From an uncultured virus (IMG/VR IMGVR_UViG_3300005253_000126) (lineage: Duplodnaviria > Heunggongvirae > Uroviricota > Caudoviricetes): a stretch of 27,883 nt of DNA. Each line of letters starts with the position of its first letter. The first letter of the stretch is position 1. The DNA lies in the IMG/VR virus record IMGVR_UViG_3300005253_000126; one strand, 5' to 3'. Shown here piece after piece: positions 4,568-27,883 of this stretch. The translations under genes were made by a program, and so were the position numbers. The notes under the pieces were generated by a model. The model ran no database searches. It saw only the letters and a program-made list of their open reading frames with translations, and had not been told where the DNA came from.

Positions 4568-6334
4568 TCAAGGGAACGCCACCCCTTTACCCCCAACAAA
4601 GAGAGGGGATCTCCCTTTGGGGACCTGGTTATCCCAGATCGACCAGCGCCCAAAAAACGACTTCAATGCCTGGAAGTTGGCATCGTTGTCGATGTTATTC
4701 AGGACCACGTCCACCGGCACATATCTGCCACGTTTTCTCGGCCCGCTTGCCAGGAACCGGGTCACAGCCCTCAGAGCGGCGTCCTGCCTAGGCAAGAACA
4801 TATAATGGCCCTCGATGCTATACCCCGACTTCTTGAAGTCCTTCAACAGCCCCTGCACCTTGGCCAGGTCGCGCATCGTGGCATCACTGACCACGTTCAG
4901 TCTCAGGTCCCGCGCGATTCTATGGGCCTCGGCGAATATGAATGAGGACTCCTGATGCACCTGGGCAGCATTCCAGCCCCTGAATTCTGGCAGCCCCGCC
5001 TTGATCTTGTCCGGGTCCAGGACGATGTTGGTCTTCGGATCGAATACCCTGCCCTCCAGGGCCCCCTTACCCGATCCACCACGGCCCCCGAGCATAGTGA
5101 ATCTGGGAGCCACCCCTGCCTCTGGCGTGGCCGCGGCCACCGCGTCGGTCGTGAATATGTCACCAAGAATGCTATCGTGCACAGCCAGCCTTTCCGTAGT
5201 CCATGCCCCGTCCACCTTGTGAACGGTATCGGTAGCCCGCAGCCTCCTCAGGTTAATGTCATTCTCGATCACCTCTCTCCTGACGGATGGTGACAGATCA
5301 TCCAGGATCGCGCCCGCCGTGATATTCGGATCGTCGAATTGCTTGGCATACTGATCCAGAGGCAGAGCTGAACGCCCAGGCCTGACACGAGGAGCCACAC
5401 CCGGCTCCAAGGCCCCCGGGGCCCCTACGGTCGGGCCCTTCCTGCTCTTCCTCAATACCCCTCGACAGAATGGGTGATATGGCGGCGTGTCCCAGCCAGC
5501 TCCCGAGAGCTGCTCGGTGTTCATCGCCTTGAGGTTCCGTATCCCGGCCCTGCTCTGGCTGGGCCATGTGGCGATAGTCTTCATGTCGTTCGGGTTGTCC
5601 ACAGACAGCCAGCGATTCAGCTTATCCGCGGCCCCGGCGACTGAGAATACCTTGCCGTTCATCTCCCGACAAACGGGGCAAGTCCGGATGTCTAACTGCT
5701 CCGACACCCGGTAGAATTGGACGTTTCGCGCCGTAGCCTCCTGAGTGAATCCCCAGCTCCCTAACCTGGAGGCATGCAGGCTGCTCGCTAGCAAGATATT
5801 CTGGCCGCCAGCGCCAATGGCCCTCTGCCCTAGATCCACGGCGAACGAACCCACCAGCTTCTGCATAGGGACCCGGCCTTCCTTCTCGTCCAGCTTCTGC
5901 TGTAGGAATATCCGAGCCTCTCTCCTAACCACCTCATTCGTGTCTATCAGCGTCATCTGGAAGATCTCGACCGCCCTGTCAACCACCTCCGGCACCTGTT
6001 CCTTCGCGAATCGGGTGTTCCTGGCCCGCGCGAAGTCGGTAGCCCCAAAGATCACAGCCATCTCCCCCGTGAACCGGGCCCTGCGCTCTTGCCTGCGAGC
6101 CACAGGCCCCAGGTCCAGCTCCTCGACGGCCGCGAATGCCCCGTTGATGTCCCCGGCCTGAAACCGGTCAGCAATCTTCTGGACCACAGAGGAAGCCTCT
6201 CGCTTCCAGGAGTTGAATGTGGGGATGGCCAGGGAGTCCTCGATGGCCAGAAAGGCCTCGCGGCGTACTGTCGTGGCCTGGGGGGCTCTGGACTCCGTTG
6301 TCGCTCTAGTCGGGGCAGCCGCTATATCAACCAT
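4568..6334 (-). CDS. Head morphogenesis protein (MuF/SPP1 gp7 family) with C-terminal zeta-toxin-like P-loop kinase domain
   Basis: MuF motifs LDIRTCPVCREMNGKVF and PPYHPFCRG. C-terminal GGRGGSGKG Walker A (5063-5089), LDPDKIK..LPEF, VHQESS, NVVSDAT, RA..RF....RGRYVP and W..WDN as in zeta-toxin domains. Immediately downstream of the portal; start placed at the ATG overlapping the portal stop (frame open to 6412). Confidence 0.85.
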   Translation of the reverse strand: MVDIAAAPTRATTESRAPQATTVRREAFLAIEDSLAIPTFNSWKREASSVVQKIADRFQAGDINGAFAAVEELDLGPVARRQERRARFTGEMAVIFGATDFARARNTRFAKEQVPEVVDRAVEIFQMTLIDTNEVVRREARIFLQQKLDEKEGRVPMQKLVGSFAVDLGQRAIGAGGQNILLASSLHASRLGSWGFTQEATARNVQFYRVSEQLDIRTCPVCREMNGKVFSVAGAADKLNRWLSVDNPNDMKTIATWPSQSRAGIRNLKAMNTEQLSGAGWDTPPYHPFCRGVLRKSRKGPTVGAPGALEPGVAPRVRPGRSALPLDQYAKQFDDPNITAGAILDDLSPSVRREVIENDINLRRLRATDTVHKVDGAWTTERLAVHDSILGDIFTTDAVAAATPEAGVAPRFTMLGGRGGSGKGALEGRVFDPKTNIVLDPDKIKAGLPEFRGWNAAQVHQESSFIFAEAHRIARDLRLNVVSDATMRDLAKVQGLLKDFKKSGYSIEGHYMFLPRQDAALRAVTRFLASGPRKRGRYVPVDVVLNNIDNDANFQALKSFFGRWSIWDNQVPKGRSPLFVGGKGVAFP

Positions 6335-8279
6335 CGCCGTGGTCATGATCCTGGTGGATGGCCAAGGCTGCAATCTCACTGAGTTGATCGGCCCCCGCGG
6401 GATCGTGGCCATACCCAGCCATCATATTGATAGCCGCCAGGTGATGGAACATCGCCTTGTATTGCTCCGGCAGGTTCTTCACGATCCTGACCATGGTCTT
6501 CCTGGCGTCTGGGCTCGGCTCTTTTTCGCCGACGGTCATCACCGCCCACTCCTGAGCCAGGTGGATCACCTCCTCCATGCCCATCTTCATAGCCCGCTGC
6601 AGGGATTCGCCCCCCTCCCCATTAGGAACCCCCTCGGGAATACCCCCTGGGGGCATCGGTGGGGCAGGCGGCTTGATCATCTCAACCTCTTCAGGGACCT
6701 CAAAGGTCAAATCGACGATCTCGTTCAGGGTCTCCACCACATCCTTGTTAGTTATGGCCCCGGCCTTGATCGCAAGCTCAACGCCCTTGATCTGGCTGTC
6801 CACGTCGCGCAGGGTGATGGCCAGGGAGTGAAATATAAAATCTGGGGCGATCTCCCTCATGATCGTCTTGTTCATCACCTCGTCGAACTCCTCGCGCTCG
6901 GGCTTGAACACCTGGGCCTCTGCGATCATGTACGAGGTCTTGGCCGTCGCGAAGTTCATGTCCTCACTTTTGCCCACGAACAGCGGCGGCAAACGGAAAC
7001 TGGACCGCACGCGTTTCTCGTTGTTCGTGTTGTAGACCTCGAACATGCTGTCCTTCAAGCGCTCAGATCCGAATCTCTCGACTAGCACCTTGACGTTGCC
7101 CGGCTTGTCCATGTCCCCACCGGCCGCGTGTACCTCGATGACCATCGCCCGGTTCTTGCTCGCCCCCTTGCCGCTCAGGTAGGTCTGGATCTGCTGCCTG
7201 ACCACCTCGGTCAGGACACCGCCCTGGATAATGATCATCGCCGGGGGTAGCCCGCCACTGTTGAAAAAGTCCAGATTCAGCTCCTCGGCCTTACGTGAGC
7301 CCAGGATACTGGGGGTCTGATTGATCCACCGCGGCACACCATACGGGGTCCCCGGCATCTTGTTCACCGTGAACATAATCAGCTCGCTGGCCCGGTCGGG
7401 CATCGCGACTGGCTTATCCGCAGTCTCCCAGGCACCGGTCATTTTATTCAGTTCACGGCTGGCCTTATATTCCTTAAAAAAGACCATTCCCTTGCCCCTC
7501 TCGATCTTCGGGGTGCCCGCCACATTCTCCGCCCGCACACTACCGGTGCGCTGCATGTATCTCCTCTCCCTGGTCAGGAGCTTCACATTCATCTCCCGGC
7601 CCCTACGCATGAGCGTGATGTCCTTGACCACAGCCATGTCAAGCCTCACCAGCCTGATGGTCGTCGGGTCAACGTTGTTCACCAACATGATCTCGCCCTT
7701 GGGGTTACGAATCACCTCCAGATACGCAACGCCAGTGACCTCAAGCCCCCGTCTCAACTCGCGCCTCATGGTCATGAACGATGTGTTAGGCCAGGGCTCG
7801 CTGAAAAAATCCTCGGCCACCTGTTGCTTCCTCTTCTGCTCAGCCTCGGCGGCGATCTCCTCGGGGGTGGGGGCCACGGGCACCGGTTCCTCGCCCTCAG
7901 GCGGCTGCTTATCGTCTGCCTCATCCTCGGACGTGCCTAGATCCTTAGGTACAATCTCGTGCCCTGTGCCGTCTATGTTGACCTCCATCGCCGCGATGTT
8001 CTGCATCAGGGCGTTATTATGGGCACACAGATGGACCAGGAGCCTCAGATGAAACGGTGGGTTGATGATCTGCCTGCGGTCGTCCTCGTGCAGGGTCGAG
8101 AACTCGTCATCGGCCGTGAACGCATTGGACTCTAAGACAGCCTGATCCTGCTTGCTCAGTTTCCTGCGCTTAATCAGGGTCACGTCGGTGTTGAGCCCCA
8201 TGGCCTTGAGCGCTTCGGACTGCTCAAGCTCTTCCGGGGTCATGGATGGCTCTTGATTCTTGTCCTTCTTTTTGGGCAC
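6327..8279 (-). CDS. Portal protein, PBSX family
   Basis: 650 aa. LEVTGVAYLEVIRN..GE, YGVPRW, AEELN.DFFNSGGLP, D.MFE.Y....VRSSFRLPPLFVG.SED.NFATA, VF.PER. GTG start with GGAGG RBS. Confidence 0.9.
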   Translation of the reverse strand: MPKKKDKNQEPSMTPEELEQSEALKAMGLNTDVTLIKRRKLSKQDQAVLESNAFTADDEFSTLHEDDRRQIINPPFHLRLLVHLCAHNNALMQNIAAMEVNIDGTGHEIVPKDLGTSEDEADDKQPPEGEEPVPVAPTPEEIAAEAEQKRKQQVAEDFFSEPWPNTSFMTMRRELRRGLEVTGVAYLEVIRNPKGEIMLVNNVDPTTIRLVRLDMAVVKDITLMRRGREMNVKLLTRERRYMQRTGSVRAENVAGTPKIERGKGMVFFKEYKASRELNKMTGAWETADKPVAMPDRASELIMFTVNKMPGTPYGVPRWINQTPSILGSRKAEELNLDFFNSGGLPPAMIIIQGGVLTEVVRQQIQTYLSGKGASKNRAMVIEVHAAGGDMDKPGNVKVLVERFGSERLKDSMFEVYNTNNEKRVRSSFRLPPLFVGKSEDMNFATAKTSYMIAEAQVFKPEREEFDEVMNKTIMREIAPDFIFHSLAITLRDVDSQIKGVELAIKAGAITNKDVVETLNEIVDLTFEVPEEVEMIKPPAPPMPPGGIPEGVPNGEGGESLQRAMKMGMEEVIHLAQEWAVMTVGEKEPSPDARKTMVRIVKNLPEQYKAMFHHLAAINMMAGYGHDPAGADQLSEIAALAIHQDHDHGDG

Positions 8280-11778: not shown

Positions 11779-12120
11779 TCAGTGTTTTAGTGGTATAGCA
11801 CAATCAGGACACGGAATGAAGGCCGGGTCCCCCTTTTGAGCCTGAGGAACCTTGACCTTGCGAGTACCCCCACAGGTATCACAGCCCTCTGCTTTGCCCT
11901 TCTTCTTCTGGCCCAGCTTGATCACCCGCGTGACCGTGTTGTCCTGCAACATCAGCCCCACGTCGCCATACCGCCTATTCACGCGCCCGTGTGTGAACGG
12001 TGCTGAGTTGGCAGCCATCTCCGCGATCTTACGCTGAGCCCCTCTGAAATGATTGGGGGCCAGCTCCAGGAGGATGGCCTGCCTGATGGCAGACTTGTTG
12101 ACGAATATATGCTGGCTCAC
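11779..12120 (-). CDS. Hypothetical protein with C-terminal Zn finger (CDTCGG...CPDC)
   Basis: 113 aa; GTGA overlap with the upstream gene. Confidence 0.65.
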   Translation of the reverse strand: MSQHIFVNKSAIRQAILLELAPNHFRGAQRKIAEMAANSAPFTHGRVNRRYGDVGLMLQDNTVTRVIKLGQKKKGKAEGCDTCGGTRKVKVPQAQKGDPAFIPCPDCAIPLKH

Positions 12121-12404
12121 TTGTCCTTCAATAACGAGCCCCGGACGATCTGGACATTCGCTGGGGCCATGATCGTCACCTTGGCCATGTCCTGCCTGCC
12201 TATACCGGCGCTGACCCGCACGTTCTTGTGGATCTCTTCACTGTGCCGGTCGTCGATCTTGAACAGGTGATTGAATCCCTTCTCCACTAGCAGCCTGAAC
12301 TTCACGGGCCCGTCGATACGGTCGACAGATACCCTGATCTTCTCGCCTGCGTTGATGATGTAGAAATCCTGCCCCTTTTTCAGGTTGAGTACCAATGCTC
12401 CCAT
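12117..12404 (-). CDS. CsrA/RsmA-like protein, apparently a tandem duplication
   Basis: ALVLNLKKGQDFYI..IRVSV and VRVSA...KVTIMAPANVQIVRGSL align by eye with the CsrA pattern (MLxLxRxxGE.I.IG.....V.V.....V.IGIxAP..V.I.R.E). GAGGAGG RBS. Confidence 0.55.
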   Translation of the reverse strand: MGALVLNLKKGQDFYIINAGEKIRVSVDRIDGPVKFRLLVEKGFNHLFKIDDRHSEEIHKNVRVSAGIGRQDMAKVTIMAPANVQIVRGSLLKDK

Positions 12405-18141: not shown

Positions 18142-18216
18142 TGGTCCCAGGAGAAGGATTTGAACCTCCGACCTATCGGTTATCGACCGATTGCTCTACG
18201 GCTGAGCTACCCCGGG
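18142..18216 (-). tRNA. tRNA-Ile(GAT), non-canonical
   Basis: CCCGGGG-TA-GCTC-AGCCGTA-GAGC-A-ATCGG-TCGATAA-CCGAT-AGGTC-GGAGG-TTCAAAT-CCTTC-TCCTGGG-A-CCA: full cloverleaf with encoded CCA. Confidence 0.85.
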
Positions 18217-26398: not shown

Positions 26399-26640
26399 AG
26401 CCCTCTCTCAAAGTCTCGTGCAAACGGATACCGGTCGTCATCCCCCATGCGGATCATCCGACGGACGATGTGCTTTGTCCAGATCTCAAGGTTCATCGAC
26501 TTGATGCTTCCCGCGTGATGGTCTCGAATGTAGCCCACGGCCTGCACCATCGGCATGTACGTGGCATTACCCGCTACCAGCTCGGCCAGGGCATCCTCCA
26601 GGTCATTGAGACGGGGGAATGCTATCACGTCAGCGGTCAT
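26395..26640 (-). CDS. Hypothetical protein
   Basis: MTADVIAFPR...; ATGA overlap. Confidence 0.6.
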   Translation of the reverse strand: MTADVIAFPRLNDLEDALAELVAGNATYMPMVQAVGYIRDHHAGSIKSMNLEIWTKHIVRRMIRMGDDDRYPFARDFERGL

Positions 26641-26810
26641 GCCAAGAACCCCCAAATGAGCCCAGCCCCGATAACGAATACCCCCAGCCCCCTCAGATAG
26701 TTGCGGGTGAAGATGCGGTCGCGCTCAGCCTTGAGGCAAGAGCACAATTTATCATCCTTCAAACAGTGCAAGGGCTTAGTGCCCCAGATCTTGCAATCAC
26801 GGGCGGTCAT
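26637..26810 (-). CDS. 57-aa Cys-rich protein with C-terminal TM (not in ORF track)
   Basis: GAGGGG RBS; MTARDCKIWG...GLGVFVIGAGLIWGFLA*. Confidence 0.55.
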   Translation of the reverse strand: MTARDCKIWGTKPLHCLKDDKLCSCLKAERDRIFTRNYLRGLGVFVIGAGLIWGFLA

Positions 26811-27033
26811 AAGGCCCCCTCTCGTCTTCGCCGCCGATCTCCATGTCGTAGACCATGCCCACGTTGAACTGTGAAGCCTTGACCCCAGTCACACGATTTA
26901 TGGTCAAGGTGACCACGTCATGCTCACTGGAGAATTCCACGGTCCAGAATGTAGGCACAGTCTCTCCTGGCGTATGAATCCCGCGAAGGGGAGTAGTGTG
27001 CGTCTTCGAGATACATCTCATCTTGGTCTTCAC
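26797..27033 (-). CDS. Hypothetical protein
   Basis: 78 aa, GGAGG RBS, GTGA overlap. Confidence 0.65.
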   Translation of the reverse strand: MKTKMRCISKTHTTPLRGIHTPGETVPTFWTVEFSSEHDVVTLTINRVTGVKASQFNVGMVYDMEIGGEDERGPYDRP

Positions 27034-27260
27034 TCTGTCACCTCCTCTTTCTTCGCGCAGATATTCACGATCATGCCCTTGTCGAGCACCATCATGAACT
27101 GATCCATGGGCTTCGCCCAGTCCGGGCCCGTTCTCGGCACCGGCTTATACGTCGACACCTTGACGACGCAAGGCGGCTGTACGGGTTCGATCTTGCACGC
27201 TGGCTTCCCTAGGCATAGCTGGAAAATCAGCGCGAGGGCTGTGAAATCGGTAGTCATCAT
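27030..27260 (-). CDS. Hypothetical Cys-containing protein, possibly exported (start uncertain)
   Basis: MMTTDFTALALIFQLC...; GAGGTG upstream. Confidence 0.5.
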   Translation of the reverse strand: MMTTDFTALALIFQLCLGKPACKIEPVQPPCVVKVSTYKPVPRTGPDWAKPMDQFMMVLDKGMIVNICAKKEEVTE

Positions 27261-27494
27261 CACCTCTTCTGCTAAAGATAGCCCACTGCTCTGGGCTGTC
27301 AAGATCCTCTCTGAGGAAGATGACCTGAGCTGGCCCGTTCATTAGCTCTGTCCGCCCGTGAGCGAGCCAAAGCCTCTGTCCACTCAGATCACCTTCCTCG
27401 GAGCCCTGGACTTACGTCCGTCTAGGTGCCGTCGCACCGCCGACCAGGGTCATGTTGTTATGCGTCCCTCTCGTTCTCCTCCGTCCAGGTGTTA

Positions 27495-27648
27495 GATGAT
27501 GCTTACTGCATCCCACTGCTTTCGATTCAGTGCCTGGCTGGATCAGAGCCTGGTGAGCCTGCCGGTAGTGGAGGTCCGGGCCTCCGTTTTATGCCGTTCA
27601 ACTACCGCCCTGGTGGGCTGCTCATTTCAAGATGCAGTAAGCATCATC
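27495..27648. ncRNA. Candidate structured ncRNA closed by an 18-bp perfect inverted repeat
   Basis: GATGATGCTTACTGCATC (27495-27512) / GATGCAGTAAGCATCATC (27631-27648) with several nested internal stems; no minus-strand ORF. Confidence 0.6.
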
Positions 27649-27759
27649 CCTAAAAATCTGAAGGGCTTCAGTTTCGCGATTTACGTGACCGCCCTCCTCG
27701 CCACACCGTACCTGGTCTCGCTGTGCACGCTCCACCAGGCCAATAGGCACCGTTTAAGA

Positions 27760-27861
27760 TGGTCCCCAGGGAGGGGGACTCGAACCCCCTTCGGCTGACT
27801 CAGACCGTGCATGGTCCTCAAACATCAGCTTGCCACCCCGCATGCACACAAAGGCCCTGGC
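27760..27861 (-). ncRNA. tRNA-like element (T-arm, partial acceptor stem, CCA end; no canonical D/anticodon arms)
   Basis: 3' end reads GGGGG-TTCGAGT-CCCCC-TCCCTGGGG-ACCA; upstream CCAGGG can pair with CCCTGG. Confidence 0.5.
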
Positions 27862-27883
27862 ATGAAATCGTGCCTCCCTGCCG

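What the first reader, a model, noticed from the sequence alone, without database searches (positions are those of the whole stretch)
27495..27648. 154-nt multi-branched RNA candidate closed by an 18-bp perfect helix
Seen: terminal inverted repeat 27495-27512/27631-27648. Inside: CACTG/CAGTG (27514-27532; minus-strand loop contains C-GAAA-G), GGCT/AGCC (27536-27550), and TGAGC/GCTCA (27554-27558/27620-27624). The last encloses CGGTAGT/ACTACCG (27563-27569/27601-27607), GGAGG/CCTCC (27570-27585) and GCCC/GGGC (27607-27618). All stems nest. The element lies in the only long non-coding tract of the window, next to a tRNA-like RNA. It matches no RNA family I can recognise. End-pairing around internal hairpins recalls retron msr-msd a1/a2 arms and Y-RNA-like layouts, but no reverse transcriptase or Ro protein is in the window. 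Inference: an undescribed phage ncRNA, for example a decoy or anti-defence RNA, or an RNase III-processed RNA.
Basis: partly seen in the sequence, partly recalled or inferred. Interest (0 to 1): 0.72.

Follow-up and report, generated by a model that had tools for sequence, protein, structure and literature searches.

The report
Optional phage four-way-junction RNA
A marine-sediment bacterial virus carries, among its tRNA-type genes, a small folded RNA gene that matched no family we could search and that sister strains gain or lose as a unit; it may help the virus handle its host, but neither its expression nor its job has been shown.

Summary
The sequence observation holds. The 18-bp inverted repeat is perfect and is the only one of 12 bp or more in the window. 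The inner stems exist, but the inner 116 nt alone fold no better than shuffles. The RNA strand is most likely minus (27649→27494). There the closing helix extends to 20 bp, the loops are A-rich, and a promoter, tRNA-Tyr and a tRNA-like RNA lie upstream.

The element is an optional 163-nt module. It is cleanly absent, with no target-site duplication, from sister phages, and 90-95% conserved in others whose upstream neighbour differs.

A distant phage of the same family (G021) has a probable homologue that starts at a σ70-type promoter. It has the same four-way junction and the same UGAAA linker. Of 14 junction-proximal pairs 11 are identical; of 26 distal pairs 22 are changed on both sides. This alignment is hand-made, has two members, and its model scores are weak (homology about 70%).

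No Rfam match was found. It fails the retron, Y RNA and MITE tests. Best reading: a new family of stable accessory phage RNAs whose junction binds a host protein. Expression and function are untested.

The parts
27494..27649 (-). Predicted RNA, 156 nt, four-way junction (P1, P2 domain, P6, P7)
   Evidence: fold; strand; homologue
27492..27654 (.). 163-nt optional module: the RNA plus short AU-rich linkers; absent in sister phages
   Evidence: L224 alignment; joint in X5 and loose end in X12
27630..27649 (-). P1 5' arm (perfect part 27631-27648, G·U pair at each end)
27494..27513 (-). P1 3' arm (perfect part 27495-27512)
27625..27629 (-). UGAAA linker between P1 and P2, identical in the G021 homologue
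27554..27624 (-). P2 domain: P2 (27620-27624/27554-27558), P3 hairpin 27607-27618 (absent in G021), P4 (27601-27606/27564-27569), 15-nt A-rich bulge 27586-27600, P5 hairpin 27570-27585
27533..27553 (-). P6 hairpin; CUCACC at its base and CUGAU near its tip shared with G021
27514..27532 (-). P7 hairpin abutting P1; CAYUG/YAGUG stem shared with G021
27760..27883 (-). Upstream neighbour: tRNA-like RNA with T arm and 3' CCA
27659..27752 (-). Two upstream hairpins (27698-27752, 27659-27697)
27399..27491 (-). Downstream neighbour: invariant multi-hairpin block, present with or without the element
   Evidence: 0 of 93 changes in L224; 0 changes over 27390-27486 in X8
27309..27400 (-). Long hairpin closing the tract (z -6.1 on minus)
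27275..27302 (-). σ70-type promoter match (10 of 12) for the downstream small-gene cluster

Best explanation
A free-standing, stable phage small RNA of about 140-156 nt that is accessory cargo of a tRNA/ncRNA operon. (1) Shown in sequence: it lies on the minus strand in a ~900-nt non-coding tract that begins with a σ70-type promoter match and tRNA-Tyr. (2) Inferred: host RNA polymerase transcribes the tract early, and host nucleases cut the AU-rich linkers to release the RNA. (3) Inferred from two members: the ~20-bp closing helix is a clamp of conserved length but free sequence that protects both ends, while the four-way junction with its UGAAA linker is the working surface. (4) Inferred, weakest step: that surface binds a host protein as a decoy or ligand, most plausibly a defence or RNA-regulatory protein found in only some hosts. 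That would explain why sister strains gain or lose it whole.
For: Context: promoter match TTGCAA-16-TATACT at L220 227-254, tRNA-Tyr at L220 337-422. Strand: the closing run reaches 22 pairs with G·U on minus against 18 on plus; unpaired A:U is 23:6, p=0.002. Unit behaviour: a clean 163-nt absence in L224, a joint across it in X5 and an L224-like junction in X12, while other contigs in X6 and X12 hold it with 13 changes in 261 nt and 9 in 91 nt and both stop matching at 27649. Homologue: G021 60797-60942 (L337 98-243) was the best non-self hit of model R1 among 8 loci. A model built from it alone picked this element, minus strand, as its best non-self hit among 9 sources that included the whole window (15.7 bits). 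It folds with the same junction and starts 5-8 nt after a TTGACA-16-TATTAT promoter match. Of 14 junction-proximal pairs 11 are identical, 3 are wobble changes and 0 are broken; of 26 distal pairs 22 change on both sides. Inner-sequence alignment z 2.7-3.1 against shuffles. Precedent for defence-evasion cargo in such regions: T5 tRNA-Tyr (PMC11555353, passages).
Against: No expression data: no RNA run holds it. The inner fold alone is not more stable than shuffles. The model scores are not significant by themselves: R1 gave unrelated inverted repeats up to 22 bits, more than the 12.6 bits of G021. G021 ranks 9th, not 1st, of 3631 helix-closed control segments by inner alignment score. The pair counts come from a hand alignment of two separately predicted folds, so they lean toward the structure. 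No third member was found in 33 family records or by consensus patterns in IMG/VR and GTDB genomes. The individual changes in the X6 and X12 copies were among 77 rows not shown, so close-range covariation is untested. No partner protein is identified.
Confidence: 0.5

Rival explanations
1. A cis-acting domain of the precursor transcript, not a free RNA: a 5' stabiliser, a processing signal (for example an RNase III site) or an antitermination element.
For: In G021 the homologue begins at the predicted transcription start. A perfect 18-20 bp duplex is about the size of an RNase III substrate (recalled).
Against: In the window it sits mid-tract, about 510 nt after the promoter, and sister strains lack it while keeping both neighbours. 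The sequence-conserved part is the junction, not the helix.
Confidence: 0.2
2. A new self-cleaving ribozyme that processes the phage tRNA/ncRNA precursor, in the way theta ribozymes are described to do.
For: Compact conserved junction with GAAA and CUGA words; tRNA-cluster setting (theta ribozymes, PMC10879173, search listing and abstract start only).
Against: No ribozyme family in Rfam matches. The CUGAnGA hammerhead core is absent on both strands. It lies 110 nt from the nearest CCA end and is dispensable.
Confidence: 0.1
3. A DNA-level mobile or recombination element (MITE-like) whose terminal inverted repeats fold only incidentally.
For: Perfect terminal repeat, sharp ends, a real empty site; inner fold not significant alone; each arm is itself a GATGC-N5-GCATC palindrome.
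Against: No target-site duplication. One copy in the window. No match in the phage or plasmid collections. 30 GTDB loci with the arm pattern share no inner similarity. Strand asymmetry. The G021 homologue keeps the interior and replaces the arms, the reverse of what a MITE does.
Confidence: 0.1
4. A ligand of the phage's own tandem CsrA-domain protein or a sponge for host CsrA.
For: Window 12117-12404 scores above the Pfam CsrA cut-off, and 10 of 35 family records have a CsrA-like match. The G021 P7 loop reads CAGGAAG, like a CsrA site (motif recalled).
Against: Only 4 GGA in 156 nt, one in a loop. The P7 loop here has no GGA. G021 has no CsrA match at E<=0.001.
Confidence: 0.06
5. An orphan retron-like or Y-RNA-like decoy for host reverse transcriptase or Ro60.
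For: End-pairing around internal hairpins, as in msr-msd (PMC7736814, passages).
Against: No 10-50 bp msd hairpin (longest inner stem 6 bp on minus, 8 bp on plus). No GNCGAAN0-1G motif. No RVT_1 or TROVE match in 35 family records.
Confidence: 0.04

Closest known systems
GOLLD and ROOL RNAs
   Same: Phage RNAs of unknown function near tRNA islands (PMC12286853, passages). A family member, G018, carries a GOLLD match of 127.7 bits (below the gathering score of 150) in its own tRNA tract.
   Different: About 150 nt against several hundred; no Rfam match to either; a single four-way junction.
T5 tRNA-rich region cargo (tRNA-Tyr against retron-Eco7)
   Same: Dispensable region, strong phage promoter, tRNA-Tyr (PMC11555353, passages); the tract here also begins with a promoter match and tRNA-Tyr.
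   Different: The known active RNA there is a tRNA; this one has no tRNA fold or CCA end.
T4 species 1 and 2 stable RNAs (recalled; one library search, did not retrieve them)
   Same: Stable 120-140 nt non-tRNA products of a phage tRNA operon with paired ends, function unknown.
   Different: Sequence homology was not tested; no sequence was available from the tools.
Retron msr-msd RNA
   Same: Paired ends enclosing hairpins.
   Different: No adjacent reverse transcriptase, no long msd hairpin.
Bacterial Y RNA (YrlA)
   Same: Long terminal stem with a structured interior; found in phages (PMC4201824, passages).
   Different: No Ro-binding motif, no T/D-arm module, no Ro60 gene.
MITEs and rRNA intervening sequences (recalled)
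   Same: Optional insert closed by a long terminal helix.
   Different: No target duplication, single copy, interior more conserved than the arms.

Membership tests
Retron msr-msd | Complementary 5' and 3' ends (a1/a2) | tested here: met
   18-20 bp helix
Retron msr-msd | Contiguous reverse transcriptase gene | tested here: not met
   None among 52 of 153 window ORFs scanned against Pfam; none in six frames of G001, which is 99.7% identical over 1-26642; the next gene upstream is DUF7239; 0 of 35 family records. The rest of this phage's genome is not held.
Retron msr-msd | msd hairpin of 10-50 bp | tested here: not met
   Longest inner stem 6 bp (-) or 8 bp (+); feature from PMC7736814
Retron msr-msd | Branching G beside the terminal stem | tested here: inconclusive
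   On minus, UG follows P1; on plus there is no G there
Y RNA (YrlA) | GNCGAAN0-1G motif near the 5' end | tested here: not met
   motif from PMC4201824
Y RNA (YrlA) | tRNA-like T/D domain (Rfam YrlA) | tested here: not met
Y RNA (YrlA) | Ro60/TROVE gene nearby | tested here: not met
   0 of 35 records, controls rang in 2 of 14
MITE | Terminal inverted repeats and an empty site | tested here: met
MITE | Target-site duplication | tested here: not met
   Flanks compared with L224
MITE | Multiple dispersed copies | tested here: not met
   the host genome is unknown and was not searched
Hammerhead ribozyme | CUGAnGA core plus GAAA (motif recalled) | tested here: not met
   Rfam
Any self-cleaving ribozyme | Self-cleavage in vitro | not testable with these tools
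   needs a bench assay
GOLLD / ROOL | Rfam model match and size above 400 nt | tested here: not met
GOLLD / ROOL | Phage location near tRNA genes | tested here: met
CsrB/RsmZ sponge | Many GGA motifs in hairpin loops (recalled) | tested here: not met
   4 GGA in 156 nt

The most novel reading that the evidence does not exclude
This is the founding member of a family of RNA-only counter-defence factors. Phages of this family would keep a swappable cassette of small structured RNAs behind an early promoter, and this four-way-junction RNA would neutralise one specific host immune or RNA-control protein, being gained and lost like an anti-defence gene.
Probability: 0.25. Interest if true: 0.85.

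Novelty: new variant of a known kind. Interest (0 to 1): 0.55.

Why it matters
Phage tRNA islands are known to carry defence-evasion cargo and large RNAs of unknown function, but few small RNA classes from them have a defined fold. This one comes with natural with-and-without alleles and a probable second member that marks a conserved core. That makes a direct test possible: express it alone, mutate the UGAAA junction, pull down its partner. The tract also holds several other uncatalogued structured RNAs, one of them more conserved than this one.

Tried and rejected
Exact-pattern scans with the arm, with the downstream block and with inner motifs gave only chance hits or nothing. Protein-anchored scans for neighbouring genes gave no usable locus in IMG/VR or GTDB (six short spurious matches). 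Filtered model searches found nothing with R1 in 56 records, and with R2 only G021 and its sister G058 in 46 records. One search also missed G021, so these filtered blanks are weak. Consensus patterns from the two members gave 8 IMG/VR hits (2 are the G021 element, 6 are chance) and 63 GTDB hits, none with a closing helix above 13 of 16 pairs. No RNA holder was listed, which is no evidence on expression. The plus-strand reading (T-loop-like UUCGAUU, lower MFE) was rejected on G·U, loop composition and homologue orientation. An invertible segment was rejected: no strand-changing joint and no promoter match inside. A distributed operator was rejected: the arm palindrome occurs only twice. An integron cassette was considered from the GTTAGAT at the left junction and rejected by inspection (no attC layout; motif recalled). 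The two plus-strand ORFs across the element match no family. (MAFFT of the two members) misaligned and was not used. One search had a wrong anchor for the top of P6, corrected. Alignment A5 mixed in reverse-strand and unrelated hits and was not used. The scan's own earlier findings returned nothing.

Full report
Setting. The window is part of a tailed phage: major capsid protein, portal, protease, family A DNA polymerase and many small genes, all the recognisable genes on the minus strand. Its best holders among sequencing runs are marine sediment metagenomes. No whole genome is held. The nearest record, G001, is 99.7% identical over 1-26642 but lacks the tract. The last 580 nt (27303-27883) are non-coding.

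Observation. The 18-bp repeat is the only perfect one of 12 bp or more in the window, and none as long occurs in 13 related records. The strong folding score is due to this helix: the inner 116 nt alone score z -0.5 on minus and -1.4 on plus. Inside the closed helix the minus-strand stems are well defined, with pair probabilities mostly above 0.9. Rfam has no match over the element.

Strand. The tRNAs and genes are on minus. The closing run extends to 22 pairs with G·U on minus against 18 on plus. Unpaired positions of the minus fold hold 23 A and 6 U (p=0.002); A-rich loops are typical of structured RNA (recalled). Changes in neighbouring hairpins of L224 fit minus-strand pairing by inspection, for example U·G to C-G at 27749 and 27388. 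On minus the fold is a four-way junction: P1 (20 bp), a UGAAA linker, a P2 domain, P6 and P7.

Relatives. One metagenome scan gave 8 loci, of which 2 are true relatives. L220 is identical over 26640-27883, so it adds no covariation. It extends 535 nt past the window end and shows a promoter match, further structured sequence and tRNA-Tyr, so the tract is about 900 nt. L224 lacks exactly 27492-27654 while keeping both flanks, with no duplicated target. Of 4 runs laid (4 of 21 listed), X5 holds both an identical filled contig and a contig that skips 27491-27700. X12 holds an L224-like empty junction and a separate copy of 27559-27649 with 9 changes. X6 holds 27389-27649 with 13 changes. X8 diverges after 27486. 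The X6 and X12 copies both stop matching at 27649, and the loose end shown for X6 is unrelated upstream sequence. The element is therefore a sharply bounded optional module that travels apart from its upstream neighbour. The individual substitutions were not displayed.

A probable distant homologue. Model R1, built from this sequence alone, found nothing in filtered searches. Run unfiltered on 8 loci (14.4 kb), six of them candidate non-coding tracts I had picked from related phages, its best hit was L337 101-239 in G021 (12.6 bits, E 0.04). G021's capsid protein is 57% identical to the window's. The segment begins just after a TTGACA-16-TATTAT promoter match with extended -10 and folds independently into the same junction. 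The reciprocal model R2 picked the window's element on minus as its best non-self hit in 39.6 kb (15.7 bits, E 0.02). In a hand alignment both have a U·G pair then UGAAA. Of 14 junction-proximal pairs 11 are identical and 3 differ by a wobble; of 26 distal pairs 22 differ on both sides, 3 are the same and 1 is broken. Inner sequences align at z 2.7-3.1 against 1000 shuffles, while six other long-helix elements did not reach that in either orientation (best z 2.2).

Against the homology. R1 gives up to 22 bits to unrelated inverted repeats. G021 ranks 9th of 3631 control segments. The registers were chosen by hand. No third member appeared among 256 descriptor candidates in 33 records or in the pattern scans. 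G021's tract is also not syntenic: it lies on the strand opposite its capsid gene. I put homology at about 70%.

Family context. Long closing helices (17 or more pairs) around folded interiors occur 14 times in 16 family records, 6 of them outside ORFs of 100 aa or more, against 0 in 400 kb of block-shuffled control. Two of the 14 (G009, G014) are pairs of a repeated palindrome, not RNA candidates. G018 has a GOLLD-like RNA in its tRNA tract. G021's tract has several more folded modules without Rfam matches. No reverse transcriptase or Ro60 was found in 35 records. A CsrA-like gene is common (10 of 35).

Mechanism. Shown: sequence, fold prediction, context, presence/absence. Inferred: early transcription by host polymerase, release at AU-rich linkers, end protection by P1, protein binding by the junction. 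The pattern of a sequence-free long helix and a conserved junction argues for an RNA whose interior matters, and against a MITE. Dispensability and position in a tRNA-Tyr tract suggest accessory host-interaction cargo, by analogy with the T5 tRNA-rich region (PMC11555353). That last step has no direct evidence.

Literature. Eight searches listed no paper whose title or abstract start describes this RNA; I saw listings and abstract starts only. I read passages of PMC12286853, PMC11555353, PMC7736814 and PMC4201824. For PMC10690425 I saw the listing and searched 7 supplementary files for short words of the element, of its G021 homologue and of the downstream block, with no hit. Files 1 and 2 were too large to read and could list it among that paper's ten thousand candidates. 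T4 species 1/2 RNAs, RNase III substrate size, and the hammerhead, CsrA-site and attC motifs are recalled.

Verdict. A real structured element, most likely a minus-strand phage ncRNA (about 85%), with no match to any family searched, probably with a second member. It is a new fold within a known kind, the phage tRNA-island RNAs of unknown function. Interest 0.55.

Noticed in passing
window 27399-27491 (-): Multi-hairpin block invariant in L224 (0 of 93) and X8 while the adjacent gene differs at 24 of 273 positions in L224. More conserved than the finding itself; no Rfam match; no homologue in 33 family records by nhmmer.
   Followed up: partly
window 27760-27883 (-): tRNA-like RNA with a T arm and CCA end but an enlarged middle. 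In X5 the middle 70 nt are replaced by 69 others while both ends are kept.
   Followed up: partly
window 12117-12404 (-): 95-aa protein with two CsrA-domain stretches, above the Pfam cut-off; CsrA-like matches in 10 of 35 family records.
   Followed up: partly
window 3140, 3744, 17539, 25126: Perfect palindrome TCCACACGTGTGGA four times, three of them between genes; a likely phage operator. G014 has 47 matches to its own palindrome pattern and G009 has 7.
   Followed up: partly
window 4568-6412 (-): Head morphogenesis (Mu F-like) protein fused to a Zeta-toxin/kinase-like domain.
   Followed up: no
window 26642: G001, X5 and X8 all stop matching at this same position, suggesting a recombination boundary for the early-gene cassette.
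   Followed up: no
L340 247-696 (G018): GOLLD-like RNA (127.7 bits, E 2.5e-34) with an embedded tRNA.
   Followed up: no
L337 440-585, 583-746, 891-955 (G021): Three more long-helix folded modules in the same tract; the first has a T-loop hairpin and five arms; no Rfam match.
   Followed up: partly
L338 250-368 and 731-912 (G017): Two intergenic elements closed by 17- and 25-pair helices with GNRA loops; no significant Rfam match.
   Followed up: partly
L220 424-545: Further structured segment between tRNA-Tyr and the tRNA-like RNA, with a GAAA-capped hairpin and a long G·U-rich hairpin.
   Followed up: no
window 18142-18216 (-): Isolated tRNA-Ile(GAT).
   Followed up: no
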